64,000 nucleotides of DNA from Bacillota bacterium (GCA_018817915.1 JAHISX010000043.1:2591-66590), one strand, 5' to 3'. Positions 20,947-43,433 are shown, counted from the stretch's first letter. A program made the numbers and translations. Notes: generated from the letters alone by a model not told the origin.

Positions 20947-20967
20947 CAAAAATGAATGAGGGGACAT

Positions 20968-23940: not shown

Positions 23941-24880
23941 AGAAATCAAGAAAAAGAGCAAGCTAAGAAAATATATTGAAATGGAAAAAGTGCTATATAA
24001 AAAAGATGATAAAATAGCATATCTTTTCTCATTGCCATATGTCCTTTTATTCTTAACATTTATTGTTATCCCAATTATTTTAGCAATCTATTTATCGTTC
24101 ACAACGTTTGATTTAGTGAGTTTTCCTAGCTTCAATGGATTTAATAATTATATCTATTTACTAACTTCAGATGAAGAATTCATGAAATACATTTTACCTA
24201 ACACCATTAAGTTTGCGATTATAGTAGGTCCTGGTGGATATGCTTTATCTTTTGTTATGGCATGGGCACTTGCACAGTTACCTCATAAATTAAGAACAGT
24301 ACTTGCCATTGTCTTGTACTCACCTTCATTAACTGCTGGTGTCACAATGACTGTTGTTTGGAAAGTATTCTTTGCAGGCGATCAATCTGGTTATCTTAAT
24401 GCAATACTCTTACAATTAGGCATGATTGTTGAACCTATTTCATTCTTACAATCCCCTGATTTCTTATTTACAATCATGATCATTGTTGCTCTTTGGGGAA
24501 GCATGGGTATTGGTTTCTTAGCGATGCTTGCAGGTATACTTAATATCGATCAAGAGCTCTATGAAGCTGCTGCTATAGATGGTATGAAAAATCGTTTCCA
24601 AGAAGTGTTCTTCATCACAATTCCATCCATGAAACCTCAGATGCTCTTCGGTGCCGTTATGGCCATTGTAGGGACCTTTTCGGCTGGTGCGTTAGGCGTT
24701 TCACTCTCTGGGTCTAACCCAACACCAAACTATGCTGGATCACTCATTGTCAACCATATTGAGGATTACGGTTTTATTCGGTATGACATGGGTTATGCTG
24801 CTGCATTATCTTTAGTATTACTATTAATTATATATTTCTTTAGCCGGCTATCATGGCGGTTCTTTGGCGAAAAGGACTAG
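23933..24880 (+). CDS. Carbohydrate ABC transporter permease (MalF/UgpA type)
   Basis: EAA loop [29 protein letters not shown], 6 TM. ATG 23933 overlaps the upstream stop. Confidence 0.88.
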
Positions 24881-30955: not shown

Positions 30956-31896
30956 AAAAGATTTTGAAAAATAAACGCCCTACAGACTTTAAGACTAAGG
31001 TAAGAAAATTCTTTTTTGGCACACATGTCACAGATTCACTATTCACAAAAATAGCAATCTACACATTATTAATTAGTATTGGGTTCTTATACATCTATCC
31101 AATGCTCTATATGCTTTCAAACAGCTTGAAGAGTCAATCGGATATTGTGAACCCTATGGTGAACTGGGTACCAACCAGCCTATATTTTGGTAACTATGAA
31201 CGTGCATTTAGTGTACTGAATTATTTCCCAACTTTATGGAAGAGTATGTTTGTTACTTTCTTACCAGCTTTGATTCAAACGTTGGTTACAGCTGTTATCG
31301 GATATGGCTTTGCTAAATTTGATTTCAAGCTTAAAAAGATGTGGTTTGTTTTGGTTTTACTCACATTTGTAATCCCTGTACAGGTTTATATGATTCCTCG
31401 ATATGTCATGTTTTTCAATCTTGATTTATTGGAAAGCCCATTATCAATCATCTTGCCTGCAACATTTGGTCAAGGAATTAATTCAGCAATCTTCGTTTTA
31501 ATCTTTTATCAGTTCTTCAGAATGATTCCTAACAGCATTAATGAAGCTGCTGAAATTGATGGTGCTGGCCCTTATTACATTTTCTTTAAAATTGGTGTTC
31601 CTCTTGCAGGACCAGCATTTATTACATCGTTTTTATTTGGACTTGTCTGGTATTGGAATGAAACCTATATCTCATCTCTTTTCTTAGGCTCCGCGTATCC
31701 GAATATGCAACTAAGACTAGCGAACTTTGTTTCTGAATACACACAAATCTATGCGAGTGATGAATTACTTAGAATCAATGAAGGTGTTCGGTTGGCAGCA
31801 ACCTTACTCATCATTCTTCCAATGCTCATCATATATTTCACAATCCAACGTTGGTTTGTAGAAGGAGTTGAAAAAACCGGAGTTACCGGTGAATAA
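30952..31896 (+). CDS. Carbohydrate ABC transporter permease (MalG/UgpE type), second system
   Basis: EAA loop SINEAAEIDGAGPYYIFFKIGVPLAGP. ATGA overlap with the upstream gene. Confidence 0.88.
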   Translation: MKKILKNKRPTDFKTKVRKFFFGTHVTDSLFTKIAIYTLLISIGFLYIYPMLYMLSNSLKSQSDIVNPMVNWVPTSLYFGNYERAFSVLNYFPTLWKSMFVTFLPALIQTLVTAVIGYGFAKFDFKLKKMWFVLVLLTFVIPVQVYMIPRYVMFFNLDLLESPLSIILPATFGQGINSAIFVLIFYQFFRMIPNSINEAAEIDGAGPYYIFFKIGVPLAGPAFITSFLFGLVWYWNETYISSLFLGSAYPNMQLRLANFVSEYTQIYASDELLRINEGVRLAATLLIILPMLIIYFTIQRWFVEGVEKTGVTGE

Positions 31897-31897
31897 T

Positions 31898-33268
31898 ATG
31901 AAAATTATAAAAAACAAAAAATTACTTTTATTCCTATTTGTTATTTTACTTAGCATAGGTCTTGTATCATGCAAAGAAGAGGTCATCGTGCCTATTGATG
32001 AATTACCAGCAGTTAATACGACACTTTACCGAACAGATGTTCTAACTGGTGTTGAAGAAGTTATTTTAGATGAACTTGAATTGGGATTTAATTTCTTTTG
32101 GGAAACTGCAAATTCCAATCTTGAATCAAGTGGTTATGGACTCATTCCTGATCGCTATAATACCTATACGAATACAGCAGGAAGTGTTGCTTCCACGGCA
32201 TCTGTAGGATTTGGGTTAACAGCTATTCCAATAGGAATTGAAAATAATTGGATTACAAGAGAACAAGGTGAAGAACGTGCATACTATACCATGGTGACTT
32301 TACAAAATATGAGTCGTACACATGGGTTCTGGTATCACTTCATTGACATGCAAACCGGTGCACGGGTTTGGAGTTCTGAAGTATCCATAATTGATACTGC
32401 ACTCTTAATCAATGGCGTCTTAACGGCAGGCAGATATTTTGGTGGACGTGTTGAGCAACTTGCATATGAACTCTATGAAGCCATAGAATGGAGCTGGTAC
32501 TTCGATTATGAAGCAAACAAGTTCTATATGGGCTACAAGCCTGAAACTGGTTTTGAGGGCTATTGGGGTGGTTATGCTGAGCAATTGATGGTCTTTGTAC
32601 TTGCTGCAGGCAGTCCAGATCATTCTGTTGGCAAAGGTGCTTACCAATTAATGAAGTTATCAAGCACAAAAGTAAGCTCAGGTTTAGACTATGGAAGTTT
32701 CTATCCTACATGGACAGGCAGTTTATTTACACATCAATATTCACATGCCTGGATTGATTTTGAATCGTATAATGATGAACAAGGTTACAATTGGTTCACA
32801 AATAGCGTCAATGCTGTCGATGCTGCAATCGCTTATGCAAAATCACAAACTAGTCAATATATCGGTATAAATGAAAACTCTTGGGGCATGTCAGCATGTG
32901 ACGGGCCTAGTGGATATGTAGGAAATTATGGTAGTGGACCATCCGCAGGTAACGCACATTTTGTCGATGGGACAGTTCCGGCTTATGGCGCATTAGGCTC
33001 TATCGTATTTAGACCTGAAGAAGCAATTGCTGCAGCACTTAACTATCGTACCTATGAAAGATTTTGGAGTGTTTATGGTTTTAAAGATGCTTATAATCTA
33101 TCGAATTCAGCAAATGGTTGGTTTGGTAATGACATCATCGGTTTAGATAAGGGGATTTCAGTTGTTATGATTGAAAACTACTTATCCGGTATGGTTTGGA
33201 AGATTTATATGGAAGTTCCATACATCCAAGACGGATTAGAAAGTTTAGATTTTGTTGCTGTTGAATAA
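31898..33268 (+). CDS. Surface lipoprotein, glucoamylase-like (alpha/alpha)6 protein; GH144/PF10091-like candidate endo-beta-1,2-glucanase
   Basis: Start MKIIKNKKLLLFLFVILLSIGLVSC (lipobox). Motifs FFWETAN...SGYGLIPDRY, STASVGFGLTAI, HGFWYHFIDMQTGAR, SIIDTALLINGVL, YGFKDAYN and GLDKG, as I recall them for this family. Confidence 0.55.
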   Translation: MKIIKNKKLLLFLFVILLSIGLVSCKEEVIVPIDELPAVNTTLYRTDVLTGVEEVILDELELGFNFFWETANSNLESSGYGLIPDRYNTYTNTAGSVASTASVGFGLTAIPIGIENNWITREQGEERAYYTMVTLQNMSRTHGFWYHFIDMQTGARVWSSEVSIIDTALLINGVLTAGRYFGGRVEQLAYELYEAIEWSWYFDYEANKFYMGYKPETGFEGYWGGYAEQLMVFVLAAGSPDHSVGKGAYQLMKLSSTKVSSGLDYGSFYPTWTGSLFTHQYSHAWIDFESYNDEQGYNWFTNSVNAVDAAIAYAKSQTSQYIGINENSWGMSACDGPSGYVGNYGSGPSAGNAHFVDGTVPAYGALGSIVFRPEEAIAAALNYRTYERFWSVYGFKDAYNLSNSANGWFGNDIIGLDKGISVVMIENYLSGMVWKIYMEVPYIQDGLESLDFVAVE

Positions 33269-33300
33269 AAAAAAAGGATGTGTTCAACAGAACACATCCT
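33267..33300 (-). terminator. Intrinsic terminator of the GH35 gene, also the end point of the plus-strand operon
   Basis: Perfect 11-bp stem aggatgtgttc (33275-33285) / gaacacatcct (33290-33300) with a 4-nt loop. The U-run is present only on the minus-strand transcript (plus-strand A-run ending at the stem). Confidence 0.75.
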
Positions 33301-33305
33301 AGAAA

Positions 33306-35636
33306 TTAATTCTTGAAATATAATGTTAGTTTTGATTGTACTTTTGCGTGGATCAAACTTGTGAAATGATACGTGTCTGAATCTTTGGTGAATGTATAAC
33401 TTTCATGTGGGATTGGGTGAAGTTTTGTTTGAACGATGATTTCATCTTGCACTTGAGTTAATCTAAGATTGATCTTGTCTTGAGTATAGCTTGTCATTTC
33501 AGCTGTTGACCAGATGATATCAAAATTTGGCAATTTAAGATTAACAGGTAGCATTAGACCTTCTTGAGAGAATAAATCAATTTGTTTACCATCAAATAAA
33601 GGTTGATTATGATTTTTAATTTGGATCTTTTGATCAAAATGTTCTAAATTGAGCAAATGAATCATTGATTCATCATGATTGGATTGTGTTGTTGAAAATA
33701 AGAATCCAGTTGCACCTGTAATTTCTAATGTTGGATGTATATTCAATTGATCAAGAAATGATTGAGTGAGTTCAATGTATCCTGGATAAAGAGAAGTTAT
33801 GAAAACTGCTTGATCACTGATGAATCCTGATTTTTCTTGATTGATTGCATGATTGAATAATGTATTTTCATCTGTTTCTATCGTTTGAACATAAAATGTT
33901 CTAAACTCTTTAGCACCTTTGATTTCATGTTGATAAACCAATGATAGGTTCTTAGATTCCCAATCATAATAAATGGTTTTAGGTTTAATCTTTAAATAAT
34001 CAATCAGCAAGGTACAAGGCTCACCAAACATATCATAAATTGGTAATTCACCAATGAAGAAAGCTTTTCCACCTTGTTTTAAATAATTAACAATCTTTTC
34101 TTGAATTTCTTTTGCTAAATATTGAGCAACACCTAAGACGAGCAGTTTATGAGTTTTAACATTTAAAGACATTGCTTCAAGATGAATTGCTTTCATACGA
34201 TAATGAAGAAGAAGCATATGTTTGAGCAACGTATCCCAAAATAATGAGTTTCTATGAAATTGAAGATTTTCTTGCATTTCTTTCGTTTTCTTGGCATCTG
34301 GATTTGTATACTCAGTCATATAGTAGTCAGTAATAAATCCAATATAGACACCATCATGATCTTCTTTCATCAATGAAAGTTTATCTTGAAGATTTAAAAT
34401 CATTTGAGAAGTGGATTGTAATCTGTCAAAAGTATAATTGGTAGTGCCATCTGGTTGTATAGGTGCTGCGAAACCATGACGCTCACCTGTAATTGCTAAT
34501 CGGTTATTTCCATCAGGTTCACTTAGATGGTCTAATTTTCGATTGAATCCACCAGTTAGCAAATAGTAGTTAATCATTTTATGGCCTTGAGCAATTGACA
34601 TTCTAAGTTTAAAGTCAGATGCTGATGGCAAGTAATGTGTGGATAGATTATCACCGAAGTTACCATCTCCTACATTGAATTCAAGAGAAGTAAGTGGTTG
34701 ACCATCATGGATTGTAGAATCAGTTAACGCGTTGATGATATAGAAATCGTGAAATGTTTCTAAATCAAGATTGCCGAAGTAAACATCTGTACCTGTGATG
34801 ATACCATTATGTTGGTAAGTTTCAATGAGTTGACTAATGCCAATCGGGAATGTTTTCCCTCTGCCAGCAGAAGTCCCATGGATATTTACAAAGTAGAGCA
34901 TGTCTGTCACACCAAATGATTCCCACATGGCTTTAAGATTTTCAATATAAGTTTTAAAACGATTGCGCATCAAGCATCCAAGCGCATCTCTGAATTTGAG
35001 TTGGTTCATTGGATTGGTATCATGAAAGTCTAAGTTTGGAAGCATAACAGATAATTCTTTAAGAACTGAAGGAGTAAGATCTGGTGCATTACTGACCCAA
35101 GATAACATACCTACTTCATTATCTAGTTGAATGCCAATTACATTTCCTCCATGTTGAGCTAAATAAGGTTCTGCAACTTTAAAGACACGATGAAACCACA
35201 ATTTTGTCTCCTTTAAAAATGATGGATCTAAGTAATCAATGGTTGCTGTAGGAACGTTCTTGTTATTCCAGGTTTTAGGTTTAATTTGAGGGTATTTCTC
35301 ATACAACCAATAGGGTAAGCCTTCATTCTTAAGTTCAGCCATGATAAAAGGACCAGGTCTTAAAAAAACCATTAAATCCTTTTGTTGAGCAAGTTCTATA
35401 AAAAGACGTAGATTTTGATTTGAGTGTAAGTGACCATCAAGGTCAACTTCACCTTCAACCTCTTCATGAACAATCCATGGAACATAGGTTGCTACGGTAT
35501 TACAGCCAGTTTGTTTGAGTAAATCTAAATGCATAGACCAGGATTCAACAGGTAATCGAAAATAATGGACTTCACCTGAAAGAATCATGATCGGATTTCC
35601 ATTTTGAAAAAACGACTTAGACGCATAAGTTAACAT
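33306..35636 (-). CDS. Glycoside hydrolase family 35 protein (beta-galactosidase-like fold)
   Basis: ILSGEVHYFRLPVESW...GCNTVATYVPWIVHE...LRPGPFIMAELKNEGLPYWL and QLDNEVG are GH35 signatures. Start set at MLTYASKSFF (ATG 35636, RBS aaggaag) instead of the ORF-track 35714. Confidence 0.8.
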   Translation of the reverse strand: MLTYASKSFFQNGNPIMILSGEVHYFRLPVESWSMHLDLLKQTGCNTVATYVPWIVHEEVEGEVDLDGHLHSNQNLRLFIELAQQKDLMVFLRPGPFIMAELKNEGLPYWLYEKYPQIKPKTWNNKNVPTATIDYLDPSFLKETKLWFHRVFKVAEPYLAQHGGNVIGIQLDNEVGMLSWVSNAPDLTPSVLKELSVMLPNLDFHDTNPMNQLKFRDALGCLMRNRFKTYIENLKAMWESFGVTDMLYFVNIHGTSAGRGKTFPIGISQLIETYQHNGIITGTDVYFGNLDLETFHDFYIINALTDSTIHDGQPLTSLEFNVGDGNFGDNLSTHYLPSASDFKLRMSIAQGHKMINYYLLTGGFNRKLDHLSEPDGNNRLAITGERHGFAAPIQPDGTTNYTFDRLQSTSQMILNLQDKLSLMKEDHDGVYIGFITDYYMTEYTNPDAKKTKEMQENLQFHRNSLFWDTLLKHMLLLHYRMKAIHLEAMSLNVKTHKLLVLGVAQYLAKEIQEKIVNYLKQGGKAFFIGELPIYDMFGEPCTLLIDYLKIKPKTIYYDWESKNLSLVYQHEIKGAKEFRTFYVQTIETDENTLFNHAINQEKSGFISDQAVFITSLYPGYIELTQSFLDQLNIHPTLEITGATGFLFSTTQSNHDESMIHLLNLEHFDQKIQIKNHNQPLFDGKQIDLFSQEGLMLPVNLKLPNFDIIWSTAEMTSYTQDKINLRLTQVQDEIIVQTKLHPIPHESYTFTKDSDTYHFTSLIHAKVQSKLTLYFKN

Positions 35637-35731
35637 TGAGAAACACTTCCTTACTTTATAGGTTAAAGACTCTAGGGCTTTAACAATTGTGATTGCTTTA
35701 ATATATTTTATCATATAAAATAGAAATAGAT

Positions 35732-35747
35732 ATCGAAACGTTTCAAT
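35732..35747. promoter_or_regulatory. LacI-family operator O3 (atcgaaacgtttcaat) in the divergent GH35 / GH144-lacI-GH3-GH94 control region
   Basis: Third copy of the cgaaacgttt-c palindrome. It sits between a candidate plus-strand promoter (TTGCTT 35693-35698 / TAAAAT 35716-35721) and ATG 35758, and upstream of a minus-strand TGnTAAAAT (35705-35713). Confidence 0.6.
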
Positions 35748-35757
35748 GAGGTCAGCT

Positions 35758-36981
35758 ATGAATAAAAAATTACTCGAAGAGATCCAAAAAACTGCATTTC
35801 AATTCTTTCAAGATTTTACAAATTTTAATGAAGAGTCAACTGGCTATGGTTTAACTGTTGACCATACGAATAATTTAGATTCAGCATCCATCGCATCTTC
35901 TGGGTTTATGTTGAGTAGTTTAATTATTGGTGTTCAACATGGATATATTAGCCATGCAGTAGCACTTCATCAAGCAAGAAAGACTTTATTTACACTATAT
36001 CATCACGCTGAGCAACAATATGGATTTTATGCGCATTTCTTTGATATAAATACAGGACAAAGAAGAGGGAAATGTGAATATTCAACCATCGATACTGCAC
36101 TTGCTCTATGTGGTGTACTTGCTGTTGATGCATATTTTAATGATGAGGAAATATCCAAGCTTTCTCAAATGATAGTTGATCGTGTTGATTGGCAAGAATT
36201 CATCTTTGAAAAAGATGGTAAAAAGTTTTTGCACATGTCATATAACCCCAATAAAGATGGTGCGTATGCTTTAGGAAAAGCAGGATTCATTTATCAGTGG
36301 GATATGTTTGCTGAACAACTCATGATGTATGTGATGATAGGCGGAGGAAAATATCAAGATCAAGCAAATGATTTATATCAAGGATTTGCGCGTGATTTTA
36401 GAAGATATGGTGAGTACGAATATTTCATTTCTCCAGGCAACACATTATTCAATTACCAATTCCCTTTAGCATTCCTTAATTTGGAAGGTTATAGAGATAC
36501 TCAAAATATTTCATGGTTTGATAATGCTAAGATAGCAACACTTGCTCACCTTCAATGTTCTCTAGATTATCAAAAGACGTATAAAACATTCAGTAAGGCA
36601 TTCTTTGGATTTAATGCATCTGACACGCCTTTGGGATACCGTGTCTTTAGTGCGCTACCTAATAGCTTAAATGAGTTAAAAACCGATGGAACAGTTGCAC
36701 CTTTTTCAATGATTGGATCATTACCTTTTACACCGGATATCAGTATGGCATCGATTGAAAAAATGCTTAAAATTAATGGTTTGTGGGGACGTTATGGATT
36801 CTATGATGCTTTTAATCTTGAAAAAGATGAACCATGGATCAGTCAAAGATATATTGCAATTGATAAAGGATTAGAAATGCTAATGTGCAATTTTGTATTA
36901 ACTAAGGATGTTCAAAATGCTTTAATGAATCATCCTGTAATTGTTAAAGGTTTAGAAACACTTCATTGGGTAAAAAAATAG
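35758..36981 (+). CDS. Cytoplasmic paralogue of the GH144/PF10091-like glucoamylase-like protein
   Basis: No signal peptide. Same motif set as 31898-33268: TGYGLTVDHT, ASIASSGFMLSS, YGFYAHFFDINTGQR, STIDTALALCGVL, YGFYDAFN, IDKG. RBS gagg lies 6 nt before ATG 35758. Confidence 0.55.
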   Translation: MNKKLLEEIQKTAFQFFQDFTNFNEESTGYGLTVDHTNNLDSASIASSGFMLSSLIIGVQHGYISHAVALHQARKTLFTLYHHAEQQYGFYAHFFDINTGQRRGKCEYSTIDTALALCGVLAVDAYFNDEEISKLSQMIVDRVDWQEFIFEKDGKKFLHMSYNPNKDGAYALGKAGFIYQWDMFAEQLMMYVMIGGGKYQDQANDLYQGFARDFRRYGEYEYFISPGNTLFNYQFPLAFLNLEGYRDTQNISWFDNAKIATLAHLQCSLDYQKTYKTFSKAFFGFNASDTPLGYRVFSALPNSLNELKTDGTVAPFSMIGSLPFTPDISMASIEKMLKINGLWGRYGFYDAFNLEKDEPWISQRYIAIDKGLEMLMCNFVLTKDVQNALMNHPVIVKGLETLHWVKK

Positions 36982-37014
36982 ATTCAATATAGTTTAAAGA
37001 AAAGAGTTGATATC

Positions 37015-37974
37015 ATGACAACGATTAAAGACGTAGCTAAAAAAGCAGGAGTATCAATTTCCACAGCTTCTTATGCAATCAATAATTTACCAAATGTTCA
37101 TCCTGACACTAGAAAGAGAATACTTGAAGCAGCAAAAGAGTTGGACTATCATCCAAATGGTATTGCTCGTAATCTCAAAACACAAAGAACAGGTAACATT
37201 GGCGTCTTCATTTATGGATTTTCTGGACCAATATTTAGTGATGTTCTTGAGGGTATTAGACAAAAACTTCAAGAAAATAACTTTAACATTGTCGTAAGTA
37301 GCGGAAAATCATCTGCAAATCTTCTTCTGGAAAGACAAGTTGATGCAGCTATCGTGTTTGATGGAGAATTAACTGATGATATTTTACTCAATTATGCGAA
37401 ATATGGATTTCCACTTTTCGTCCTTGATCGCAAATTACAAGCAGAAAACATTTATTCAAGTGTTATCGATAATGAAGGTTTGGTCAAACAATTCATCATG
37501 CAGATGATTGAAAAGGGATATGACGATTTTGCATTTGTCAGTGGACCAAGCGATTCATTTAATAATAATCACCGTTATGAAGGTTTTAAAATAGCATTAA
37601 AAAATAAAGGCATTACGCATCATGAGTTTATTGAAAGTGATTTTACGATTCAAGGTGGATATAATGCAGGTAAAAAAGTTCTATCGATGGCAAAAAAACC
37701 TAGATTTGTATATTGTGCCAATGATGAATCTGCCATAGGATTTATGAGAGCAATCAAAGAAGGAGGATTAAGAATTCCTTCTGATATCGCAGTTGCTGGA
37801 TTTGATAACTTCTATATGGGAGAATTCATTTCACCAAAACTAACAACCATCGGTATCGATCACATCCTTTGGGGAAAACAAGTAGCTGGTGTCATTATTG
37901 ATATTGTAACAAATCAAAAGGTTAAAGAAATAGGGCATCCTCAAGGATCCATCATCATGAGAAAGTCTTGCTAG
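37015..37974 (+). CDS. LacI/GalR-family transcriptional regulator
   Basis: N-terminal HTH MTTIKDVAKKAGVSISTASYAINN followed by a periplasmic-binding-protein-like sugar-sensor domain. 319 aa. Confidence 0.92.
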   Translation: MTTIKDVAKKAGVSISTASYAINNLPNVHPDTRKRILEAAKELDYHPNGIARNLKTQRTGNIGVFIYGFSGPIFSDVLEGIRQKLQENNFNIVVSSGKSSANLLLERQVDAAIVFDGELTDDILLNYAKYGFPLFVLDRKLQAENIYSSVIDNEGLVKQFIMQMIEKGYDDFAFVSGPSDSFNNNHRYEGFKIALKNKGITHHEFIESDFTIQGGYNAGKKVLSMAKKPRFVYCANDESAIGFMRAIKEGGLRIPSDIAVAGFDNFYMGEFISPKLTTIGIDHILWGKQVAGVIIDIVTNQKVKEIGHPQGSIIMRKSC

Positions 37975-38004
37975 ACTAGAAGGCATTAGACATTAGGAGA
38001 ACAT

Positions 38005-40146
38005 ATGGATATAAACAAGCTGTTGCATAATATGACAATTGAAGAAAAAGCAGGACAACTTATGCAGTTAGCACCTTTTTTCTTCATCAGGGATTTAGAA
38101 ATCGAAGTTGCTGGAAATGTGAGTGACATTGGCATCACACAAAAGAAGATCTTTCAATCAGGGTCTGTTTTAGGTATTCGAAATGCTAAAGAAATGATTG
38201 ATGTACAAAAAAGATATTTAAGTCAAAGTCGCTTACAGATACCTTTGATTTTTATGGCAGATATCATCCATGGTTATGAAACGATATTTCCTGTACCAAT
38301 TGCGATTTCAAGTTCGTGGAATCCAGAATTAGCATATCAAATGGCTAGAGTTTCTGCTCTAGAAGCTTCTTCAGCAGGTATCCACGTCACTTTTTCACCT
38401 ATGGCTGATTTATCTAGAGATCCAAGATGGGGCAGAGTCGTTGAAGGATTTGGTGAAGATGCATATCTTTCATCATCCTTTGTCAAACAAATGGTATTAG
38501 GATACCAAAATGATGGTATTGAAAAACCTGGGAATGTTGCTTCTTGTGTTAAGCATTTTGCAGCTTATGGGGCTGTTGAAGCAGGTAGGGATTATAATAC
38601 CGTTGATGTTTCTAGACTATTTTTGCATCAATATCACTTAACAGGGTATAAAGCAGCAATCGATGCTGGAGCAAAAATGATTATGACAGCATTCAATACT
38701 GTTGATGGTATACCCTCAACGGTTAACTCATATTTGTTAAAAGATGTTTTAAGAGATCAATGGAAATTTGAAGGAGTTACAATCTCAGATTATGATTCAC
38801 TACATCAAATCGTCGATCACGGATGTGCTGAAAATGATAAAGAAGCCGCTTTATTAGGCATTGAGGCAGGTTTGGATATCGAAATGGCTTCATCTTGTTA
38901 TGTCAACTATTTAAAAGAGTTGATTAATGAAAATAAAGTTGATGTCAAACGAGTTGACAAAGCAGTCTTGCGTATCTTAGAGCTAAAAAAGGAACTCGGA
39001 CTCTTTGAAAATCCATTTAAAGGTGCAGATATTTTATTGGAAGAACAATTAGTACATTCTAAAGAACATCTTGCGATTGCAAAAAAAGCTGCAGATGAAT
39101 GTTCAGTTTTACTTAAAAATGATCATGTTTTACCACTTAAAGAAGGTGTGAGAGTTGCTCTGATTGGTCCACATGCACAATCGAGATCTACCAATGGGTC
39201 ATGGTCATGGCATGGAAAAAGCGAACTCAATAGCACGCTAGAAGAATCTTTAATCAAACAAGATATCATTCCAGTGATTACTTTGAGTGTTGAAAGAGAT
39301 GATCAAATTTCAAAAGAAGATAAAGAAATACTTAAGACTTGTGATGTTGCTATCATAGCAATTGGTGAGGATGCTTATGAAAGTGGAGAAGCACGATCTA
39401 AAACAGATCTTTCCATACCAAGAAAACAATCATCGCTTGTTCAATTAGTCAAGTCATTGGGACTAAAGAGTGTTGTTTTATTATACTCAGGTAGACCACT
39501 TATGCTTGACTCAGTTCTACAAACAGATGCTTTAATGTATGTTTGGTTTCTAGGTAGTCAAGCCAATGAATCAATCAGTGAAACCTTGAGTGGAAAAATT
39601 AATCCATCAGGGAAGTTAACAATGTCCTTTCCAAGAAATGTAGGACAAATTCCAATATATTACAATTATTACACGACTGGAAGACCTAAAGAAGAACATG
39701 TACAAAATGAATATGTTTCTTATTATCTTGACGTGCCCAATTCACCACTATTTCCATTTGGATATGGGTTGAGCTATTCATCGTTTGATTATCATGATCT
39801 TCATATCTCTAGCGATGAAATAACGCCAGAAGAAAAGCTATCCATATCGATAGAAGTTACCAATAAAAGTAATGTTGCAGGATATGAAACTGTCCAACTT
39901 TATATCAGAGATTATGTTTCAAAAATTGTACGTCCAATTAAAGAACTTAAAGGATTTAAAAAAGTTTGGTTTGATGGAAACACTTCACAAGTCATCAAAT
40001 TCAATCTCCAACTTGAAGATCTTATGATCATTGATGCCTTTGGAAATGAGTTTTTTGAATATGGAAAGTTTTCTGTGATGGTCGGCCCAAATTCAGAAAA
40101 TGTGATTTCAAAAGACTTTAGATTGATTAAGGAGAGCAAACAATGA
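38005..40146 (+). CDS. Glycoside hydrolase family 3 beta-glucosidase (BglX type), cytoplasmic
   Basis: SRDPRWGRVVEGFGEDAYL, KHFAAYGAVEAGRDYN, GVTISDYDS (nucleophile region) and the C-terminal FPFGYGLSY with an FnIII-like tail. No signal peptide. Confidence 0.9.
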   Translation: MDINKLLHNMTIEEKAGQLMQLAPFFFIRDLEIEVAGNVSDIGITQKKIFQSGSVLGIRNAKEMIDVQKRYLSQSRLQIPLIFMADIIHGYETIFPVPIAISSSWNPELAYQMARVSALEASSAGIHVTFSPMADLSRDPRWGRVVEGFGEDAYLSSSFVKQMVLGYQNDGIEKPGNVASCVKHFAAYGAVEAGRDYNTVDVSRLFLHQYHLTGYKAAIDAGAKMIMTAFNTVDGIPSTVNSYLLKDVLRDQWKFEGVTISDYDSLHQIVDHGCAENDKEAALLGIEAGLDIEMASSCYVNYLKELINENKVDVKRVDKAVLRILELKKELGLFENPFKGADILLEEQLVHSKEHLAIAKKAADECSVLLKNDHVLPLKEGVRVALIGPHAQSRSTNGSWSWHGKSELNSTLEESLIKQDIIPVITLSVERDDQISKEDKEILKTCDVAIIAIGEDAYESGEARSKTDLSIPRKQSSLVQLVKSLGLKSVVLLYSGRPLMLDSVLQTDALMYVWFLGSQANESISETLSGKINPSGKLTMSFPRNVGQIPIYYNYYTTGRPKEEHVQNEYVSYYLDVPNSPLFPFGYGLSYSSFDYHDLHISSDEITPEEKLSISIEVTNKSNVAGYETVQLYIRDYVSKIVRPIKELKGFKKVWFDGNTSQVIKFNLQLEDLMIIDAFGNEFFEYGKFSVMVGPNSENVISKDFRLIKESKQ

Positions 40147-43100
40147 ACATTAAAAACAGCATGAAAACTCACGAATTGAATCATGGAGGCATCTCATTCA
40201 ATCTATTGGAAAATGGAGATATTTTTGATATAAGCTATGAAGATAATCAAATCAATTTATTAAAAGGTAATGCTATTGATGGATCGCTGATGAATTTATA
40301 CTTAAGAGTGTATATAGATGATTCAGTCTACTTTACTAGATTGATTGGAAAACATTCACCAAGTCACTTTTTTATTGAACAAGATATCGTTTATTACCAA
40401 GGTATATTTCAAGGTGTAGCCTATCAAGTATCCCTTAAACTTAATCAATTTGATTGGATTTATGAGGTTAAACTTAAGAGCGATTTTGCATGTCAAGCTG
40501 ATGTGATCTACGGACAAGATATTGCTATTCAGTCAAAATCAAGTGTCTTATCAAGTGAACCATATACAGTACAATACATTGATTATAAAGCATTTTCCAA
40601 TCAAAAAGGATATACTTTGTGTGCTCGTCAAAATCAAGGCAGATCTCAGTTTTTGCAAATCGGAAGTTTAACTAAAAATATTGCATACACAACAGATGGT
40701 TTTCAATTCTTCGGATTATCCTATAAGGAAACAGGCATACCTGAGGCCATGGATCAACCTCGTCTTATTTCCGAGGTTTATCAATATGAGTTCTCATATT
40801 TCGCTTTACAAAGCGATATCATTGATGTTGAGCAAAATGAAAAAAGTGTAGTCTTTTATGGTTTGTATAAATCTTCATATGATCAAGTGATTGAACATTT
40901 CGAGCCTTATCATGAAATTTTTGAATCTGCTTGGATAGACAGAAAAGTCAATAAGCAACCTAGCAGCAAGGCTTTACTTGATTCAACAAAACAAATCAAT
41001 GGTTTAACTATCGATGAAGATGGTTTGAAACTGATATACTCTAAAATGAATTTACCAGAAAGAAATGAAGAAGATCTTCTTTCATTTTTTTCAACAAATA
41101 ATCATCACGTCGTACTTAAACAAAAAGAATTACTCGTTGAAAGACCACACGGACATATTTTAGTCCAAGGTGATTTAAAGCATGCTACAGAATCAGTCAT
41201 GGCTACGACGAACTTTATGTTTGGTGTCTTTAATTCACATGTTGTTTTAGGTAATACAAGCTTCAATAAATTTATTGGGAATACACGTAGTCCGTTAAAC
41301 GTTCAAAAAATTTCTGGACAACGTATTTATATTAAACGCAATAAAGTATATTACATCTTAGGTTTACCAAGTTTTTATGATATGGGAGGAGCAACAACAA
41401 GATGGACCTATATCCTTGATGATGATGTTTTAACTGTCGATGTCATGATTGATATTGAAACAACTCAACATTCTTTAGTGATCACTTCAGAAAATCAAAT
41501 CAAATACGATTTCATTCTAACGCATCAAGTTGTTATGGGTGTTAATGAGTATGCATATCATTTGGATTATACACATAATGATCAAACGATTAGTTTTGTT
41601 GCACCAAAACAATCAATGGTAGGTGAAAAGTATCCTAATCTAACATATTCAATTCAAACAAAGACACCATTTTCGATCATTGATGAACAAACAGCATTTG
41701 GTTGTGAAAATCAACATGGCCTTCTAATCTTGTCATTCAGCAAGGTCTCAAGTTTAAGAATTAATTTATCTGCTTCTATAGATGGTCATATATTTGAACC
41801 AATCCTTTTCTCATATGAGGAAGCAGATCTTAAAGGAACAAAATATTTTAAAACTTTTTCAGGTAACCTGACACTCACTCACCCTACTTACCAACATGAA
41901 GTAGATCGATTAGAATTGATTGCATTTTGGTATACCCATAATGCACTTATTCATTATGCATCTCCACATGGACTTGAACAATATAATGGTGCTGCTTGGG
42001 GAACAAGAGATGTTTGCCAAGGACCAATGGAACTTTTCTCTGCAACTCAACATACACATTTAATGAGAGAAATTCTGCTCAAAACATATAGTCGACAATT
42101 TTTAGAAACAGGAGATTTCCCTCAGTGGTATATGTTTGATCTATATTATCAAATCCAGGCACATGAATCACATGGAGATATTATTATTTGGCCAATGCGA
42201 GCACTCGCTTACTATTTAAGAGAAACAGGTGATTTTTCAATACTTGATGAACAAGTTACTTATATGTCAAAAGAAAGTAATGAATTCACTAAACCAACAA
42301 GTTTAATGCATCATCTCAAAAAACAAATTGAGGCAATTGAATTATCTTTCATCAAAGATACTCACTTGCCAGCTTATGGTGGTGGAGATTGGGATGATAC
42401 GCTTCAGCCTGCAAATCATGATTTAACTAAAAAAATGGTCAGTGGTTGGACAGTAGCTCTACTTTATGAAGCATGTTTGGTACTTGCAGATGAATTAGAA
42501 ATTGCTCAAATTGATTTTTCTAAAAAGATGCACGAATTAGTTCATGGAATTAAACAAGATTATCAGAAATATATGATTGTTGATGATATACCAGCTGGCT
42601 TTGTTGTTTTCGGAGATGAACTGACTTATCTGCTACACCCCAGAGATTTAAAAACAGGCTTAAGTTACCGGTTATTGCCATTCATCAGATCAATGATTGC
42701 TGAATTGGCAGATGAAAATCAAGTTGATAGTTACTCTAAGATTATTGATAAATATTTGAAGCATCCTGATGGGGTAAGACTGATGGATACTACAGTTGAA
42801 TATCAGGGTGGTAAAACTACATACTTTGCTCGCGCAGAAACAGCAGCAAACTTTGGTAGAGAAATAGGTCTTCAATATGTCCATGCTCATATCAGATACA
42901 TTGAAGCTATGGCAAAAATTGGAAATGCTAAGGATGCATATAATGGATTGTTTGTTATCAATCCAATCTTAATTCAAGAAACAGTTAAAAATGCCTACTA
43001 TAGACAAAGCAATGTTTATTTTTCAAGTTCTGATGCATGGTTTAAGGATCGATATGAATCAAGAAGAGACTTTAAGAAAATACATGATCAAAAGATCTTA

Positions 43101-43433
43101 GTCAAAGGCGGATGGAGATTATATTCAAGCGGACCTGGTATCTATATTAACCAATTAATCTCAAACATTTTAGGTATTCGTCTTGATCATGGTCATTTGC
43201 TTTTAGATCCTGTCCTTCCTCAACATTTAGATGGATTAGTCGTTGATTATGTATTTAAAGATAAGCAAATCAGGATTCAGTACCATCAAGGTGAAGAAGC
43301 GGTGCTTGTCAATAAAAAGAAAGTTGCATATCAAAAATCTTTGACGCACTATCAAAATAGTGGAATCATTCTTGATGCAAATTTAATCCTTTCAAGTCAA
43401 GAGCCCGTTTTGATTGATATTTGGAGTCAATAG
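40143..43433 (+). CDS. GH94-like glycan phosphorylase; candidate 1,2-beta-oligoglucan phosphorylase
   Basis: 1096 aa and cytoplasmic. AAWGTRDVCQGP and YGGGDWDDTLQPA resemble the RD..QD and (A/G)DWND catalytic-region motifs of GH94. The size and the LacI-GH3-GH94 order match my recollection of the Listeria innocua lin1838-1840 cluster. Confidence 0.6.
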   Translation: MNIKNSMKTHELNHGGISFNLLENGDIFDISYEDNQINLLKGNAIDGSLMNLYLRVYIDDSVYFTRLIGKHSPSHFFIEQDIVYYQGIFQGVAYQVSLKLNQFDWIYEVKLKSDFACQADVIYGQDIAIQSKSSVLSSEPYTVQYIDYKAFSNQKGYTLCARQNQGRSQFLQIGSLTKNIAYTTDGFQFFGLSYKETGIPEAMDQPRLISEVYQYEFSYFALQSDIIDVEQNEKSVVFYGLYKSSYDQVIEHFEPYHEIFESAWIDRKVNKQPSSKALLDSTKQINGLTIDEDGLKLIYSKMNLPERNEEDLLSFFSTNNHHVVLKQKELLVERPHGHILVQGDLKHATESVMATTNFMFGVFNSHVVLGNTSFNKFIGNTRSPLNVQKISGQRIYIKRNKVYYILGLPSFYDMGGATTRWTYILDDDVLTVDVMIDIETTQHSLVITSENQIKYDFILTHQVVMGVNEYAYHLDYTHNDQTISFVAPKQSMVGEKYPNLTYSIQTKTPFSIIDEQTAFGCENQHGLLILSFSKVSSLRINLSASIDGHIFEPILFSYEEADLKGTKYFKTFSGNLTLTHPTYQHEVDRLELIAFWYTHNALIHYASPHGLEQYNGAAWGTRDVCQGPMELFSATQHTHLMREILLKTYSRQFLETGDFPQWYMFDLYYQIQAHESHGDIIIWPMRALAYYLRETGDFSILDEQVTYMSKESNEFTKPTSLMHHLKKQIEAIELSFIKDTHLPAYGGGDWDDTLQPANHDLTKKMVSGWTVALLYEACLVLADELEIAQIDFSKKMHELVHGIKQDYQKYMIVDDIPAGFVVFGDELTYLLHPRDLKTGLSYRLLPFIRSMIAELADENQVDSYSKIIDKYLKHPDGVRLMDTTVEYQGGKTTYFARAETAANFGREIGLQYVHAHIRYIEAMAKIGNAKDAYNGLFVINPILIQETVKNAYYRQSNVYFSSSDAWFKDRYESRRDFKKIHDQKILVKGGWRLYSSGPGIYINQLISNILGIRLDHGHLLLDPVLPQHLDGLVVDYVFKDKQIRIQYHQGEEAVLVNKKKVAYQKSLTHYQNSGIILDANLILSSQEPVLIDIWSQ

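What the first reader, a model, noticed from the sequence alone, without database searches (positions are those of the whole stretch)
31898..43433. Enzyme set consistent with a beta-1,2-glucan / sophoro-oligosaccharide utilisation pathway
The module LacI regulator - cytoplasmic GH3 beta-glucosidase - ~1100-aa GH94-like phosphorylase (AAWGTRDVCQGP; GGGDWDDTLQPA) has the same composition and order as a Listeria innocua cluster I recall. In that cluster the large GH94 enzyme is 1,2-beta-oligoglucan phosphorylase, the GH3 enzyme prefers sophorose or sophoro-oligosaccharides, and an ABC SBP binds them. This island additionally has two glucoamylase-like (alpha/alpha)6 proteins. Their motifs (GYGL..D, S.A..GF.L, GF.(Y/A)HF.D..TG, S.IDTA.L, YGF.DA(Y/F)N) match what I remember of the GH144/PF10091 endo-beta-1,2-glucanase clan. 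Beta-1,2-glucans are periplasmic or cyclic glucans of Proteobacteria such as rhizobia, Agrobacterium and Brucella. A complete capture-import-phosphorolysis system in an Acholeplasma-like cell would imply scavenging of other bacteria's glucans.
Basis: partly seen in the sequence, partly recalled or inferred. Interest (0 to 1): 0.7.

Follow-up and report, generated by a model that had tools for sequence, protein, structure and literature searches.

The report
Beta-1,2-glucan utilisation locus in a mollicute
A wall-less Acholeplasma-family bacterium carries a regulated gene set that most likely captures, imports and breaks down beta-1,2-glucans made by other bacteria; the enzymes are known kinds, but the importer next to them is an undescribed conserved cassette.

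Summary
Within 31898-43433, each enzyme's closest characterised relative acts on beta-1,2-glucosidic bonds.

- **GH3:** its best match is Listeria Lin1840 (7.9e-183).
- **GH144:** both (alpha/alpha)6 proteins are GH144, one a surface lipoprotein and one cytoplasmic.
- **GH35:**

Published catalytic residues are conserved in the phosphorylase, GH35 and both GH144 proteins.

The locus starts at about 14940, not 31898. Upstream lie a 1372-aa lipoprotein with CBM-like repeats and an eight-gene import cassette. A 14-bp LacI-type palindrome marks both promoter regions here and in distant relatives.

The organism is a Mariniplasma-like member of Acholeplasmataceae. The locus is syntenic across that family and also occurs in Izimaplasma, Halobacillus and Paenibacillus. 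It is therefore an inherited Bacillota trait, not an island.

The enzyme module is a new member of a known kind. The cassette, with its DUF5696 protein of predicted GH129-like fold, is the most novel element. No activity has been assayed.

The parts
14939..14967 (+). Promoter-like site (TTGCAA-17-TATAAT) ahead of the first operon
   Evidence: 10 of 12 matches. This is a consensus match only; such matches are not enriched over shuffles in this AT-rich DNA.
14972..14985 (.). Candidate LacI operator TTGAAACGTTTCGA (palindrome)
   Evidence: three exact matches to TYGAAACGTTTCRA in the window, none in 100 shuffles. It lies directly after the promoter-like site.
15122..15135 (.). Second candidate LacI operator TCGAAACGTTTCGA (perfect palindrome), 27 bp upstream of the first gene
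15162..19280 (+). 1372-aa surface lipoprotein (lipobox LAFGITAC) with at least 7 tandem ~125-aa repeats; putative glycan-capture protein
   Evidence: No Pfam or NCBIfam hit. Repeats shown. AF2 model of one repeat has pLDDT 88.7. Its best Foldseek matches are CBM29, CBM4, CBM6, CBM11 and CBM22 (E about 1e-4, TM 0.5-0.64). A homologue holds the same position in Izimaplasma HR2.
19468..20901 (+). 477-aa solute-binding lipoprotein (lipobox LLAC); first gene of the eight-gene cassette
   Evidence: SBP_bac_1 only weakly, 25.7 bits, just under the 26-bit cut-off. Sequence. Same position in 42 loci.
20956..23940 (+). 994-aa membrane-anchored protein: N-terminal TM helix, ~500-aa ectodomain of unknown family, then a C-terminal SBP_bac_1/8 domain
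   Evidence: A faint CBM_35 hit in the L021 orthologue.
23852..25765 (+). First ABC permease pair (two BPD_transp_1 genes, 23852-24880 and 24881-25765; the true start of the first is probably the ATG at about 23933)
25774..27804 (+). 676-aa membrane protein: signal peptide, NHL-repeat ectodomain, C-terminal Yip1 multi-pass domain
27797..30055 (+). 752-aa DUF5696 protein, N-terminally membrane-anchored; predicted glycosidase-like fold
   Evidence: PF18952 at 469 bits. No PDB match by sequence. AF2 pLDDT 91.7, pTM 0.90. Foldseek best matches are GH129 (5OPQ, E 9.6e-30, TMt 0.71), then GH101, GH36, GH31 and GH97. Conserved acids are D226, E399, D496, D610 and D645.
30068..31896 (+). Second ABC permease pair (30068-30955 and 30952-31896)
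   Evidence: Directly upstream of the GH144 lipoprotein gene in the 14 related genome loci whose 10-kb upstream flank reaches that far.
31898..33268 (+). GH144 endo-beta-1,2-glucanase homologue, surface lipoprotein (lipobox LVSC)
   Evidence: PF10091, 1.8e-57. XcSGL 8XUL 3.4e-60 and CpSGL 5GZH 6e-40. The equivalents of the general-acid Glu, the candidate-base acid, and XcSGL F286 and Y367 are conserved (one search read against PMC12102758). The lipobox is conserved in all 16 orthologues examined.
33275..33300 (-). Hairpin with T-run; terminator-like site for the GH35 gene, also separating the first plus-strand operon from it
   Evidence: 11-bp stem, 5 GC pairs.
33306..35714 (-). GH35 protein related to beta-1,2-glucosyltransferase IaSGT; cytoplasmic; true start probably Met27 (35636)
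   Evidence: GH35 plus GLMA_2nd. Best PDB match 7VKW IaSGT, 2.5e-52. Y52, E102, N175, E176, N275, E343 and Y378 equivalents are all conserved; R349 is replaced by Gly and L100 by Met (against PMC8861115). Homologues at 43-46% identity in Halobacillus, an Acholeplasma MAG and a contig carrying the protein NCBI names as from Paenibacillus castaneae all sit beside SOGP and/or GH144.
35680..35707 (+). Promoter-like site (TTAACA-16-TATATT) ahead of the second operon
   Evidence: 10 of 12 matches; consensus match only.
35733..35746 (.). Candidate LacI operator TCGAAACGTTTCAA in the divergent GH35 / GH144cyt intergenic region
   Evidence: The same palindrome (exact in 9 loci, one mismatch in a tenth) lies about 10-25 bp upstream of the GH144cyt orthologue in 10 related genome loci and in further metagenome loci.
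35746..36981 (+). Second GH144 homologue with no signal peptide (cytoplasmic); 30% identical to the lipoprotein paralogue
   Evidence: PF10091, 4.9e-47. XcSGL 8.4e-30. General-acid Glu, candidate-base Asp and the Phe are conserved; the Y367 equivalent is Phe. Identity.
37015..37974 (+). LacI-family transcription regulator
   Evidence: LacI HTH plus Peripla_BP domains.
38005..40146 (+). Cytoplasmic GH3 beta-glucosidase of the Lin1840 / JMB19063 / BT_3567 group
   Evidence: Best PDB match Lin1840, 7.9e-183. The stop overlaps the SOGP start by 4 nt.
40143..43433 (+). [quoted passage not shown]
   Evidence: SOGP_N, SOGP_2nd, GH94 and SOGP_4th. LpSOGP 5H3Z, 1.6e-244 over residues 13-1051. Catalytic D760 and Q621, R630, D631, R907, R916, E917, H924, Y1004, S1006 and Y141 equivalents are conserved; N138 is Ser and G623 is Asn (against PMC5309861).
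43443..43477 (.). 16-bp-stem bidirectional terminator-like hairpin ending the second operon

Best explanation
This is a LacI-controlled locus of about 28.5 kb (about 14940-43480) for using exogenous beta-1,2-glucan. The proposed steps are:
1. A surface lipoprotein with many CBM-like repeats holds the glucan at the membrane of this wall-less cell.
2. The lipid-anchored GH144 endo-beta-1,2-glucanase cuts it into sophoro-oligosaccharides.
3. Solute-binding proteins and two ABC permease pairs import the fragments. They belong to an eight-gene cassette that also encodes an NHL/Yip1 membrane protein and a DUF5696 ectoprotein.
4. In the cytoplasm a second GH144 shortens, or ring-opens, imported chains.
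5. SOGP removes glucose units as alpha-glucose-1-phosphate down to sophorose.
6. The GH3 beta-glucosidase splits sophorose into glucose.
7. An IaSGT-like GH35 enzyme also acts on sophorose or short oligomers, by transfer or hydrolysis.
8. The LacI protein represses both plus-strand operons and the divergent GH35 gene through the palindrome TYGAAACGTTTCRA until an oligosaccharide inducer appears.

Shown by sequence analysis: family membership, conservation of catalytic and subsite residues, predicted localisation, operator placement and synteny. Inferred: every activity, the substrate, the direction of flux and the roles of the cassette proteins.
For: **Closest characterised relatives.** All five enzymes match enzymes acting on beta-1,2-glucosidic bonds.
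- SOGP to LpSOGP, 1.6e-244.
- GH3 to Lin1840, 7.9e-183.
- Both GH144 proteins to XcSGL and CpSGL.
- GH35 to IaSGT, 2.5e-52.

**Residues.** Published catalytic and substrate-contact residues are conserved (read).

**Localisation fits an outside-to-inside pathway.**
- Lipoboxes occur on the repeat protein, the 477-aa SBP and one GH144. The GH144 lipobox is conserved in 16 orthologues.
- No signal peptide occurs on the second GH144, GH35, GH3 or SOGP.

**Regulation.**
- Three exact operator palindromes sit at the two promoter regions, with none expected by chance.
- The same palindrome is found at equivalent positions in 10 related genomes.
- It occurs 31 times (29 intergenic) in loci L020-L108, including Halobacillus mangrovi.

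**Synteny.**
- The enzyme module is conserved next to the RNase R gene in at least 15 Acholeplasmataceae genomes.
- The whole locus is conserved in Izimaplasma HR2 and most of it in a Bacillales MAG.

**Cassette association.** The gene after the DUF5696 cassette is visible in 70 loci. In 49 it is GH144, GH35 or GH3, and 3 more have SOGP nearby.

**Not a recent import.** GC content is uniform across the locus.
Against: - No enzyme, binding protein or regulator has been assayed.
- No ABC ATPase is encoded in the locus, so it must be supplied from elsewhere.
- Lin1840 hydrolyses laminaribiose about as well as sophorose (PMC4757417). The GH3 alone therefore does not fix the linkage.
- The GH35 lacks the Arg349 that IaSGT uses at subsite +1, so its reaction is uncertain.
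- The 477-aa SBP is below the Pfam cut-off, and its relation to the Listeria sophoro-oligosaccharide-binding protein could not be tested.
- A cytoplasmic endo-glucanase looks redundant with SOGP unless long or cyclic chains are imported, which is unproven.
- Promoter-like and terminator-like matches are not enriched over shuffles.
Confidence: 0.85

Rival explanations
1. The locus works mainly in the synthetic or remodelling direction. SOGP would build beta-1,2-oligoglucans from glucose-1-phosphate. The GH35 transglucosylase would move beta-1,2-linked glucose onto glucosides, for example the cell's own glucolipids, to make cell-associated glycoconjugates rather than to feed on foreign glucan.
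For: SOGP is reversible and was first characterised in the synthetic direction (PMC3960220, abstract). IaSGT transfers glucose from sophorose to alkyl and aryl glucosides of either anomer, without hydrolysis (PMC8861115). The hydrophobic aglycone-pocket positions stay hydrophobic in the window's GH35.
Against: The locus also encodes a secreted, lipid-anchored endo-glucanase, surface CBM-like repeats, two binding proteins and four permeases. These point to uptake of an external polymer. A LacI-type repressor and a GH3 beta-glucosidase are typical of catabolic operons. The GH35 is missing from most family members that keep the rest of the locus.
Confidence: 0.05
2. The true substrate is another beta-glucan, for example beta-1,3-glucan (laminarin) or mixed-linkage oligosaccharides. 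The similarity to beta-1,2 enzymes would then reflect family membership only, not specificity.
For: Lin1840 cannot distinguish sophorose from laminaribiose. Acholeplasma laidlawii has a GH94 laminaribiose phosphorylase (reference list of PMC3960220). The same transport cassette occurs beside GH16 genes in three loci.
Against: The phosphorylase is about 780 bits closer to LpSOGP than to any other solved GH94 enzyme. It keeps the residues that impose the flipped +1 binding mode specific to beta-1,2 substrates: R907, Y141, R916, Q621, D631 and Y1004. [quoted passage not shown] Five independent enzymes point the same way.
Confidence: 0.04
3. The locus is a decaying remnant or only partly functional in this reduced-genome lineage.
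For: Mollicute-type genomes lose metabolic genes. No ATPase gene is present in the locus. Accessory genes vary between relatives: GH13 and CE7 in most, GH35 in a few.
Against: All 15 reading frames are intact and long. Catalytic residues are conserved. Operator sites are conserved. Orthologues persist at 55-94% identity in many genomes. All of this indicates purifying selection.
Confidence: 0.03

Closest known systems
Listeria innocua lin1838-lin1843 cluster (LacI, SOGP Lin1839, GH3 Lin1840, ABC transporter)
   Same: It contains a LacI regulator, a GH94 SOGP, a cytoplasmic GH3 whose closest solved relative is Lin1840 itself, and an ABC importer. The proposed role is also use of exogenous beta-1,2-glucan by a Bacillota member that has no synthase (PMC3960220).
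   Different: The order is LacI-GH3-SOGP here, not LacI-SOGP-GH3. This locus adds two GH144 glucanases (one on the surface), a GH35, a CBM-like repeat lipoprotein and an eight-gene import cassette in place of the three-gene ABC system reported for Listeria (lin1841-lin1843).
Ignavibacterium album IALB_1177-1187 cluster (GH144 homologues, GH35 beta-1,2-glucosyltransferase IaSGT, SOGP-domain protein, ABC transporter, TonB-dependent transporter)
   Same: It combines extracellular and internal GH144 homologues with a GH35 IaSGT-type enzyme and a GH94 phosphorylase-type protein (PMC8861115). The window's GH35 keeps all seven -1 subsite and catalytic residues.
   Different: The I. album cluster is didermic, with a TonB-dependent transporter and periplasmic steps, and it has no beta-glucosidase. 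Here there is no outer membrane, a GH3 is present, and the GH35 lacks Arg349.
Characterised GH144 endo-beta-1,2-glucanases CpSGL (Chitinophaga pinensis) and XcSGL (Xanthomonas campestris)
   Same: Same Pfam family, (alpha/alpha)6 catalytic domain, general-acid Glu, candidate-base acidic residue and clan-defining Phe and Tyr.
   Different: One copy here is a lipoprotein of a wall-less monoderm. The other is cytoplasmic, a location not described for the characterised enzymes covered in the papers read here.
Lachnoclostridium phytofermentans SOGP (LpSOGP, PDB 5H3Z)
   Same: Full-length alignment over four domains, including the extra N-terminal domain that closes the active site in a monomer. The catalytic Asp and nearly all ligand-contact residues are identical.
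   Different: Two water-mediated contact positions differ (N138 to Ser, G623 to Asn). The host lineage and the gene neighbourhood differ.
Bacteroidota polysaccharide utilisation loci (the SusC/SusD logic)
   Same: The logic is the same: surface glycan binding, a surface endo-enzyme, an oligosaccharide importer, internal exo-enzymes and a local regulator. A conserved transport core is paired with different glycanases in different loci. The comparison itself rests on my own knowledge of these loci.
   Different: There is no homology to SusC or SusD. The core here is two ABC permease pairs, two binding proteins, an NHL/Yip1 protein and a DUF5696 protein.

Membership tests
[quoted passage not shown] | Four-domain architecture with the extra N-terminal beta-sandwich (Ndom1) that replaces the dimer partner | tested here: met
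   Pfam SOGP_N (240 bits), SOGP_2nd (252 bits), GH94 catalytic and SOGP_4th domains. The alignment to 5H3Z covers residues 13-1051.
[quoted passage not shown] | Catalytic acid Asp760 (GDWDD) and the phosphate-site residues H924 and S1006 | tested here: met
   GGGDWDDTLQPAN is identical, as are the GREIxLQYVHAH and RLYSSGPG segments, in the alignment. Residue numbers come from PMC5309861; chain numbering is the paper's numbering plus 1.
[quoted passage not shown] | Subsite +1/+2 residues that set beta-1,2 specificity (R907, Y141, R916, Q621, D631, Y1004) | tested here: met
   All six are conserved. Only the water-mediated contacts N138 (Ser) and G623 (Asn) differ.
[quoted passage not shown] | Closer to SOGP than to the cellobiose, chitobiose, laminaribiose and cellodextrin clades | tested here: met
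   817.6 bits to LpSOGP versus at most 40.3 bits to any other solved GH94 protein. No tree was built.
[quoted passage not shown] | Phosphorolysis of sophoro-oligosaccharides of DP 3 or more to alpha-glucose-1-phosphate | not testable with these tools
   Needs an enzyme assay.
GH144 endo-beta-1,2-glucanase | PF10091 (alpha/alpha)6 domain with significant similarity to characterised members | tested here: met
   Both proteins match. XcSGL 3.4e-60 and 8.4e-30; CpSGL 6e-40 and 1.4e-22.
GH144 endo-beta-1,2-glucanase | General-acid Glu (CpSGL E211 / XcSGL E239) and the acidic residue at the CpSGL E142 position | tested here: met
   GYAEQLM and FAEQLMM carry the Glu. IIDTA and TIDTA carry an Asp at the E142 position, as in XcSGL (residues).
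GH144 endo-beta-1,2-glucanase | Clan-defining Phe (XcSGL F286) and the -3 subsite Tyr (Y367) | tested here: met
   Lipoprotein copy: F and Y are both conserved. Cytoplasmic copy: F is conserved and Y is replaced by Phe, which is still aromatic.
GH144 endo-beta-1,2-glucanase | Specific endo-hydrolysis of beta-1,2-glucan | not testable with these tools
   Needs an enzyme assay. The action pattern of the cytoplasmic copy (endo versus sophorose-releasing) is open.
GH3 beta-glucosidase of the Lin1840 (sophorose-degrading) group | Closest relatives are Lin1840, JMB19063 and BT_3567-type enzymes; three-domain GH3 architecture | tested here: met
   Lin1840 7.9e-183, JMB19063 5.1e-174, 5XXL 7.7e-167. 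GH3 N-terminal, C-terminal and Fn3-like domains.
GH3 beta-glucosidase of the Lin1840 (sophorose-degrading) group | Nucleophile D270, acid/base E473, and +1 residues R572 and Y583 from the partner subunit | tested here: inconclusive
   I reconstructed local Lin1840 sequence by hand from the mutagenesis primers printed in PMC4757417. GVLISDWGAV and GGEAGS correspond to GVTISDYDSL and SGEARS in the window protein, so D270 and E473 are conserved and W271 is Tyr, as in JMB19063.
GH35 beta-1,2-glucosyltransferase (IaSGT type) | Catalytic E176 (acid/base) and E343 (nucleophile), and -1 subsite residues Y52, E102, N175, N275, Y378 | tested here: met
   All seven are conserved in the alignment to 7VKW (residues). 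Asn, not Asp, is present at position 175, the residue said to separate Glc from GlcN specificity.
GH35 beta-1,2-glucosyltransferase (IaSGT type) | Arg349, the key side-chain contact at subsite +1 | tested here: not met
   The aligned residue is Gly. The paper notes that Arg349 is not conserved in many homologues. I therefore call the protein IaSGT-like, not an IaSGT orthologue.
GH35 beta-1,2-glucosyltransferase (IaSGT type) | Encoded within a beta-1,2-glucan gene cluster | tested here: met
   True in the window, and in Halobacillus mangrovi, an Acholeplasma MAG and a contig carrying the protein NCBI names as from Paenibacillus castaneae. Also true in many metagenome loci.
LacI/GalR regulator with palindromic operator | N-terminal HTH, a periplasmic-binding-protein-like effector domain, and a palindrome of about 14 bp with a central CG in its own regulon's promoter regions | tested here: met
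   Domains. Palindrome TYGAAACGTTTCRA at 14972, 15122 and 35733, with none expected by chance, and positionally conserved in relatives. Binding itself is not tested.
Carbohydrate ABC importer (CUT1 type) | Solute-binding protein, two permeases and an ATPase | tested here: inconclusive
   Two binding proteins and four permeases are present. No sugar-type ATPase gene is in the locus or the window; the only ABC ATPases belong to the Opp-type system at 11009-13025. From my own knowledge, shared ATPases encoded elsewhere are common in Bacillota.

The most novel reading that the evidence does not exclude
The eight-gene cassette at 19468-31896 may be an undescribed glycan-import machine of Bacillota that most often works with beta-1,2-glucan enzymes. 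Its genes are a binding lipoprotein, a ~1000-aa anchored binding-protein fusion, a permease pair, an NHL/Yip1 membrane protein, a DUF5696 ectoprotein with a GH129/GH101-like fold, and a second permease pair. One version of this reading is that it takes up unusually large or cyclic beta-1,2-glucans. That would explain why a cytoplasmic endo-acting GH144 is kept beside the exo-acting SOGP and GH3, neither of which can attack a ring. DUF5696 would then be either a new glycoside hydrolase family or a non-catalytic surface partner.
Probability: 0.3. Interest if true: 0.7.

Novelty: new member of a known kind. Interest (0 to 1): 0.45.

Why it matters
Beta-1,2-glucans are the cyclic and periplasmic glucans that Proteobacteria such as rhizobia, Agrobacterium, Brucella and Xanthomonas use in symbiosis, infection and osmoadaptation. 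Few consumers of them are known.

This locus predicts that free-living wall-less Acholeplasmataceae and Izimaplasma, and several walled Bacillota, harvest these glucans. In the full-text library searched I found nothing linking beta-1,2-glucan to these mollicute lineages.

The work identifies cultured carriers, Peloplasma aerotolerans M4Ah and Halobacillus mangrovi, in which the prediction can be tested directly.

It also ties two proteins of unknown function to a defined substrate: DUF5696 and the NHL/Yip1 protein. It supplies a candidate operator for the regulon. Both give a practical entry point to an uncharacterised import system.

Tried and rejected
- **DUF5696 against PDB sequences.** Only a chance hit at E 0.59. 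The fold had to be predicted instead.
- **NCBIfam.** It has no model for SOGP, GH144, DUF5696, the 477-aa binding protein or the repeat lipoprotein. Routine annotation would therefore not name this pathway.
- **tRNA scan of the window.** None found, so there is no integration-site signal. Together with uniform GC and conserved flanks, I rejected the idea of a recently acquired island.
- **Papers linking SOGP to Acholeplasma.** The only connection is the A. laidlawii laminaribiose phosphorylase in reference lists. I considered that the 1096-aa protein might be that enzyme type and rejected it on domain content and score.
- **Peloplasma description paper.** It does not mention glucans, phosphorylases or glycoside hydrolases.
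- **Search for DUF5696 in papers.** No paper found.
- **A substrate-neutral cassette.** After seeing GH76, GH16 and GH51 neighbours I first thought the cassette was substrate-neutral. The larger sample showed 52 of 70 cassettes linked to beta-1,2 genes, so I now describe it as mostly, not exclusively, beta-1,2-associated. That sample is biased towards relatives of the query.
- **Binding-protein specificity.** I could not compare the 477-aa binding protein with the Listeria sophoro-oligosaccharide-binding protein, or align the GH3 to Lin1840 residue by residue.
- **Promoter and terminator scans.** They give no enrichment over shuffles. I use only the sites that coincide with the operators and gene ends.

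Full report
**1. The observation**

They are two PF10091 proteins (31898-33268 and 35746-36981), a LacI regulator (37015-37974), a GH3 (38005-40146) and a 1096-aa GH94-type protein (40143-43433). Every quoted motif is present in the translations. Pfam scores are far above the curated cut-offs.

Two points need correction.
- The order LacI-GH3-SOGP differs from the published Listeria order lin1838 (LacI), lin1839 (SOGP), lin1840 (GH3) (PMC3960220). The composition is the same.

**2. The phosphorylase**

The 1096-aa protein carries the SOGP-specific Pfam domains SOGP_N, SOGP_2nd and SOGP_4th around a GH94 catalytic domain. Against all solved structures it matches LpSOGP (5H3Z) at E 1.6e-244 and 817.6 bits over residues 13-1051. 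The next best are the GH94 domain of cyclic glucan synthase (40 bits) and cellobiose phosphorylases (about 30 bits).

I read the printed alignment against the residues named in PMC5309861. These are conserved:
- the catalytic acid D760 (GDWDD);
- the phosphate-site residues H924 and S1006;
- the +1/+2 residues R907, Y141, R916, E917, Q621, R630, D631 and Y1004.

Only two water-mediated contacts differ: N138 is Ser and G623 is Asn.

**3. The GH144 proteins**

Both match characterised GH144 endo-beta-1,2-glucanases. Against XcSGL (8XUL) the E-values are 3.4e-60 and 8.4e-30. Against CpSGL (5GZH) they are 6e-40 and 1.4e-22.

I used the residues discussed in PMC12102758.
- Both proteins keep the general-acid Glu (CpSGL E211 / XcSGL E239).
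- Both keep an acidic residue at the CpSGL E142 position. It is Asp, as in XcSGL.
- Both keep the clan-defining Phe (XcSGL F286).
- The -3 subsite Tyr (Y367) is kept in the first protein and is Phe in the second.

The two are 30% identical. The first has a lipoprotein signal (…LSIGLVSC…), and a lipobox is present in all 16 orthologues examined. The second has no signal peptide.

**4. The GH3**

Its best solved relative is Lin1840 itself (7.9e-183). Next come JMB19063 and a Bacteroides periplasmic beta-glucosidase. Lin1840 prefers sophorose but also cleaves laminaribiose (PMC4757417). This enzyme supports the pathway but does not define the linkage.

I reconstructed local Lin1840 sequence by hand from the printed mutagenesis primers. 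It indicates that D270 and E473 are conserved. The R572 position is only probably conserved (TGRP motif), and I mark that test inconclusive.

**5.

The minus-strand GH35 protein's best solved relative is the beta-1,2-glucosyltransferase IaSGT of Ignavibacterium album (7VKW, 2.5e-52). This is ahead of the archaeal exo-beta-glucosaminidases and all beta-galactosidases.

All seven residues that PMC8861115 lists for catalysis and the -1 subsite are conserved: Y52, E102, N175, E176, N275, E343 and Y378. That includes Asn175, which the authors contrast with Asp in glucosaminidases. Arg349, the key +1 contact, is Gly, and Leu100 is Met. The paper notes both as common variations among homologues.

Homologues at 43-46% identity lie beside SOGP and/or GH144 genes in all three contexts examined. 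These are Halobacillus mangrovi, an Acholeplasma MAG, and a contig carrying the protein that NCBI names as from Paenibacillus castaneae. In the Paenibacillus-type and Halobacillus contexts no GH3 is visible, so this GH35 may handle sophorose there.

I call it IaSGT-like. Whether it transfers or hydrolyses is open.

**6. Upstream: capture and import**

The unit begins near 14940. The first gene (15162-19280) encodes a 1372-aa lipoprotein with no Pfam or NCBIfam hit. It has at least seven ~125-aa repeats. A model of one repeat (pLDDT 88.7) is a beta-sandwich. Its best structural matches are chain-binding carbohydrate-binding modules: CBM29, CBM4, CBM6, CBM11 and CBM22 (E about 1e-4, TM 0.5-0.64). 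That is moderate evidence for a glycan-binding role.

Eight genes follow:
1. a 477-aa binding lipoprotein;
2. a 994-aa anchored protein ending in a binding-protein domain;
3. and 4. two permeases;
5. an NHL-repeat/Yip1 membrane protein;
6. a DUF5696 protein;
7. and 8. two more permeases.

No ATPase gene is present in the locus.

**7. The cassette is a conserved unit**

The eight genes are collinear in 42 of 88 fetched loci that are long enough to show them. The gene following the cassette is visible in 70 loci.
- In 49 it is GH144, GH35 or GH3.
- In 3 more, SOGP is nearby.
- In 18 it is something else: GH16 (three loci), GH13 (two), GH76 with GH38, a GH51-like arabinofuranosidase, a sulfatase, and surface Ig-like proteins.

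The sample consists of the best matches to a query alignment dominated by beta-1,2-linked proteins, so the proportion is biased.

DUF5696 has no sequence match in the PDB. A confident model (pLDDT 91.7, pTM 0.90) resembles GH129 glycosidases (5OPQ, E 9.6e-30, TMt 0.71; 5WZN), then GH101, GH36, GH31 and GH97. Five acidic positions are conserved across 37 homologues: D226 in all 37, D645 (Asp or Glu) in all 37, and E399, D496 and D610 in 33-35. I could not superpose the structures, so whether these are catalytic is unknown. No paper in the library mentions DUF5696.

**8. Regulation and operon structure**

The palindrome TYGAAACGTTTCRA occurs exactly three times in 64 kb, and none occurred in 100 shuffles.
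- Two copies lie between a promoter-like site (14939-14967) and the first gene.
- One lies at 35733-35746, between a promoter-like site (35680-35707) and the cytoplasmic GH144 gene. This is the region shared with the divergent GH35 gene.

The same palindrome lies about 10-25 bp upstream of the GH144cyt orthologue in 10 related genomes. It occurs 31 times, 29 of them intergenic, in loci L020-L108. There it sits upstream of the binding-protein, GH144, SOGP or LacI genes, including in Halobacillus mangrovi.

Terminator-like hairpins lie at 33275-33300 and 43443-43477. I infer two plus-strand operons, 15162-33268 and 35746-43433, plus the GH35 gene, all under the locus's LacI protein. Binding itself is untested.

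**9. Organism and distribution**

The closest SOGP genes (78% identity) are in MAGs named Mariniplasma. Others at 51-69% are in Acholeplasmataceae MAGs, HGW-Tenericutes-2, Xianfuyuplasma and the cultured Peloplasma aerotolerans M4Ah.

The module permease-permease-GH144-GH144-LacI-GH3-SOGP, followed by the RNase R gene, is syntenic in at least 15 of these genomes. The GH35 is present only in the window and its two closest relatives among them. Most others carry a GH13 and a CE7 esterase at the variable positions.

The whole locus is conserved in Izimaplasma HR2 and most of it in a Bacillales MAG. GC content is uniform, and the flanking genes are housekeeping genes. This is an inherited chromosomal locus, not an island.

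**10. Most likely mechanism**

The steps are as given in the best explanation: capture by the repeat lipoprotein, surface endo-cleavage by GH144, import by the cassette, cytoplasmic trimming by the second GH144, phosphorolysis by SOGP to sophorose plus glucose-1-phosphate, and sophorose cleavage by GH3. The GH35 is a further sophorose-using enzyme.

Sequence analysis shows family membership, residue conservation, predicted topology, operator placement and synteny. All activities, the natural substrate and the roles of the cassette proteins are inferred.

The cytoplasmic endo-type GH144 is the least explained part. One reading is that long or cyclic glucans, which exo-enzymes cannot attack, are imported.

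**11. Comparison with known systems and novelty**

The enzyme set unites parts known separately: from Listeria (LacI, SOGP, GH3, ABC), from I. album (GH144 copies, GH35, SOGP-type protein) and from the characterised GH144 enzymes. On that basis it is a new member of a known kind.

The undescribed elements, as far as the searched library shows, are the presence in mollicute-type bacteria, the cytoplasmic GH144, the candidate operator, and the import cassette with DUF5696.

**12. Limits**

- No tree was built.
- Residue checks were read from pairwise HMMER alignments.
- The binding-protein specificity and the GH3 +1 residues could not be tested.
- The cassette census is biased.
- Nothing has been assayed.

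Noticed in passing
window 19468-31896; also L020-L108: An eight-gene cassette (binding lipoprotein, ~1000-aa binding-protein fusion, two permeases, NHL/Yip1 protein, DUF5696, two permeases) is collinear in 42 loci from diverse Bacillota. In 52 of 70 loci it is linked to beta-1,2-glucan genes. Elsewhere it is linked to GH16, GH13, GH76 with GH38, or GH51 genes.
   Followed up: yes
window 27797-30055: DUF5696, a family with no described function, is predicted with high confidence to have a GH129/GH101/GH36-like glycosidase fold on a membrane anchor. Five acidic positions are conserved. Whether it is catalytic is unknown.
   Followed up: partly
window 15162-19280: A 1372-aa lipoprotein with no family assignment is built from at least seven ~125-aa repeats (two nearly identical at the DNA level, 18536-19246). 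The predicted fold of a repeat resembles chain-binding carbohydrate-binding modules.
   Followed up: partly
L008 4393-6018 and 6936-7901 (Peloplasma aerotolerans); same positions in most related loci: Most Acholeplasmataceae versions of the locus carry a GH13 alpha-amylase-family gene and a CE7 (AXE1) esterase gene where the window has neither. The window and its two closest relatives instead have the GH35 gene between the two GH144 genes. From my own knowledge, an esterase could remove acyl substituents from decorated cyclic glucans; this was not tested.
   Followed up: partly
L023 14134-18751 and L054 (Acholeplasma sp. MAG); L027 12543-17167 (Halobacillus mangrovi): Other versions of the locus insert a glycerophosphodiester phosphodiesterase (GDPD), a DUF4886 protein and a CBM4_9 surface protein between the GH144 genes, or sulfatase/phosphodiesterase-family genes after the GH35. 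From my own knowledge, cyclic beta-1,2-glucans of Proteobacteria often carry phosphoglycerol and succinyl groups, so these may be de-decorating enzymes.
   Followed up: no
window 43499-44350 (minus strand): A 283-aa predicted membrane protein with no Pfam hit lies between the SOGP terminator and the RNase R gene. It was found in only one of the related loci (L002, 86% identity).
   Followed up: no
window 20956-22600: The ~500-aa ectodomain that precedes the binding-protein domain in the 994-aa protein has no family assignment. The orthologue in L021 shows a faint CBM_35 hit.
   Followed up: no
window 8848-14800: A complete Opp-type peptide ABC importer (two permeases, two ATPases, a family-5 binding protein) lies directly upstream of the glucan locus. 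Its ATPases are the only ABC ATPases in the window.
   Followed up: no
window 1410-2465 and 59720-60997: Two ORFs of 351 and 425 aa have no Pfam match.
   Followed up: no
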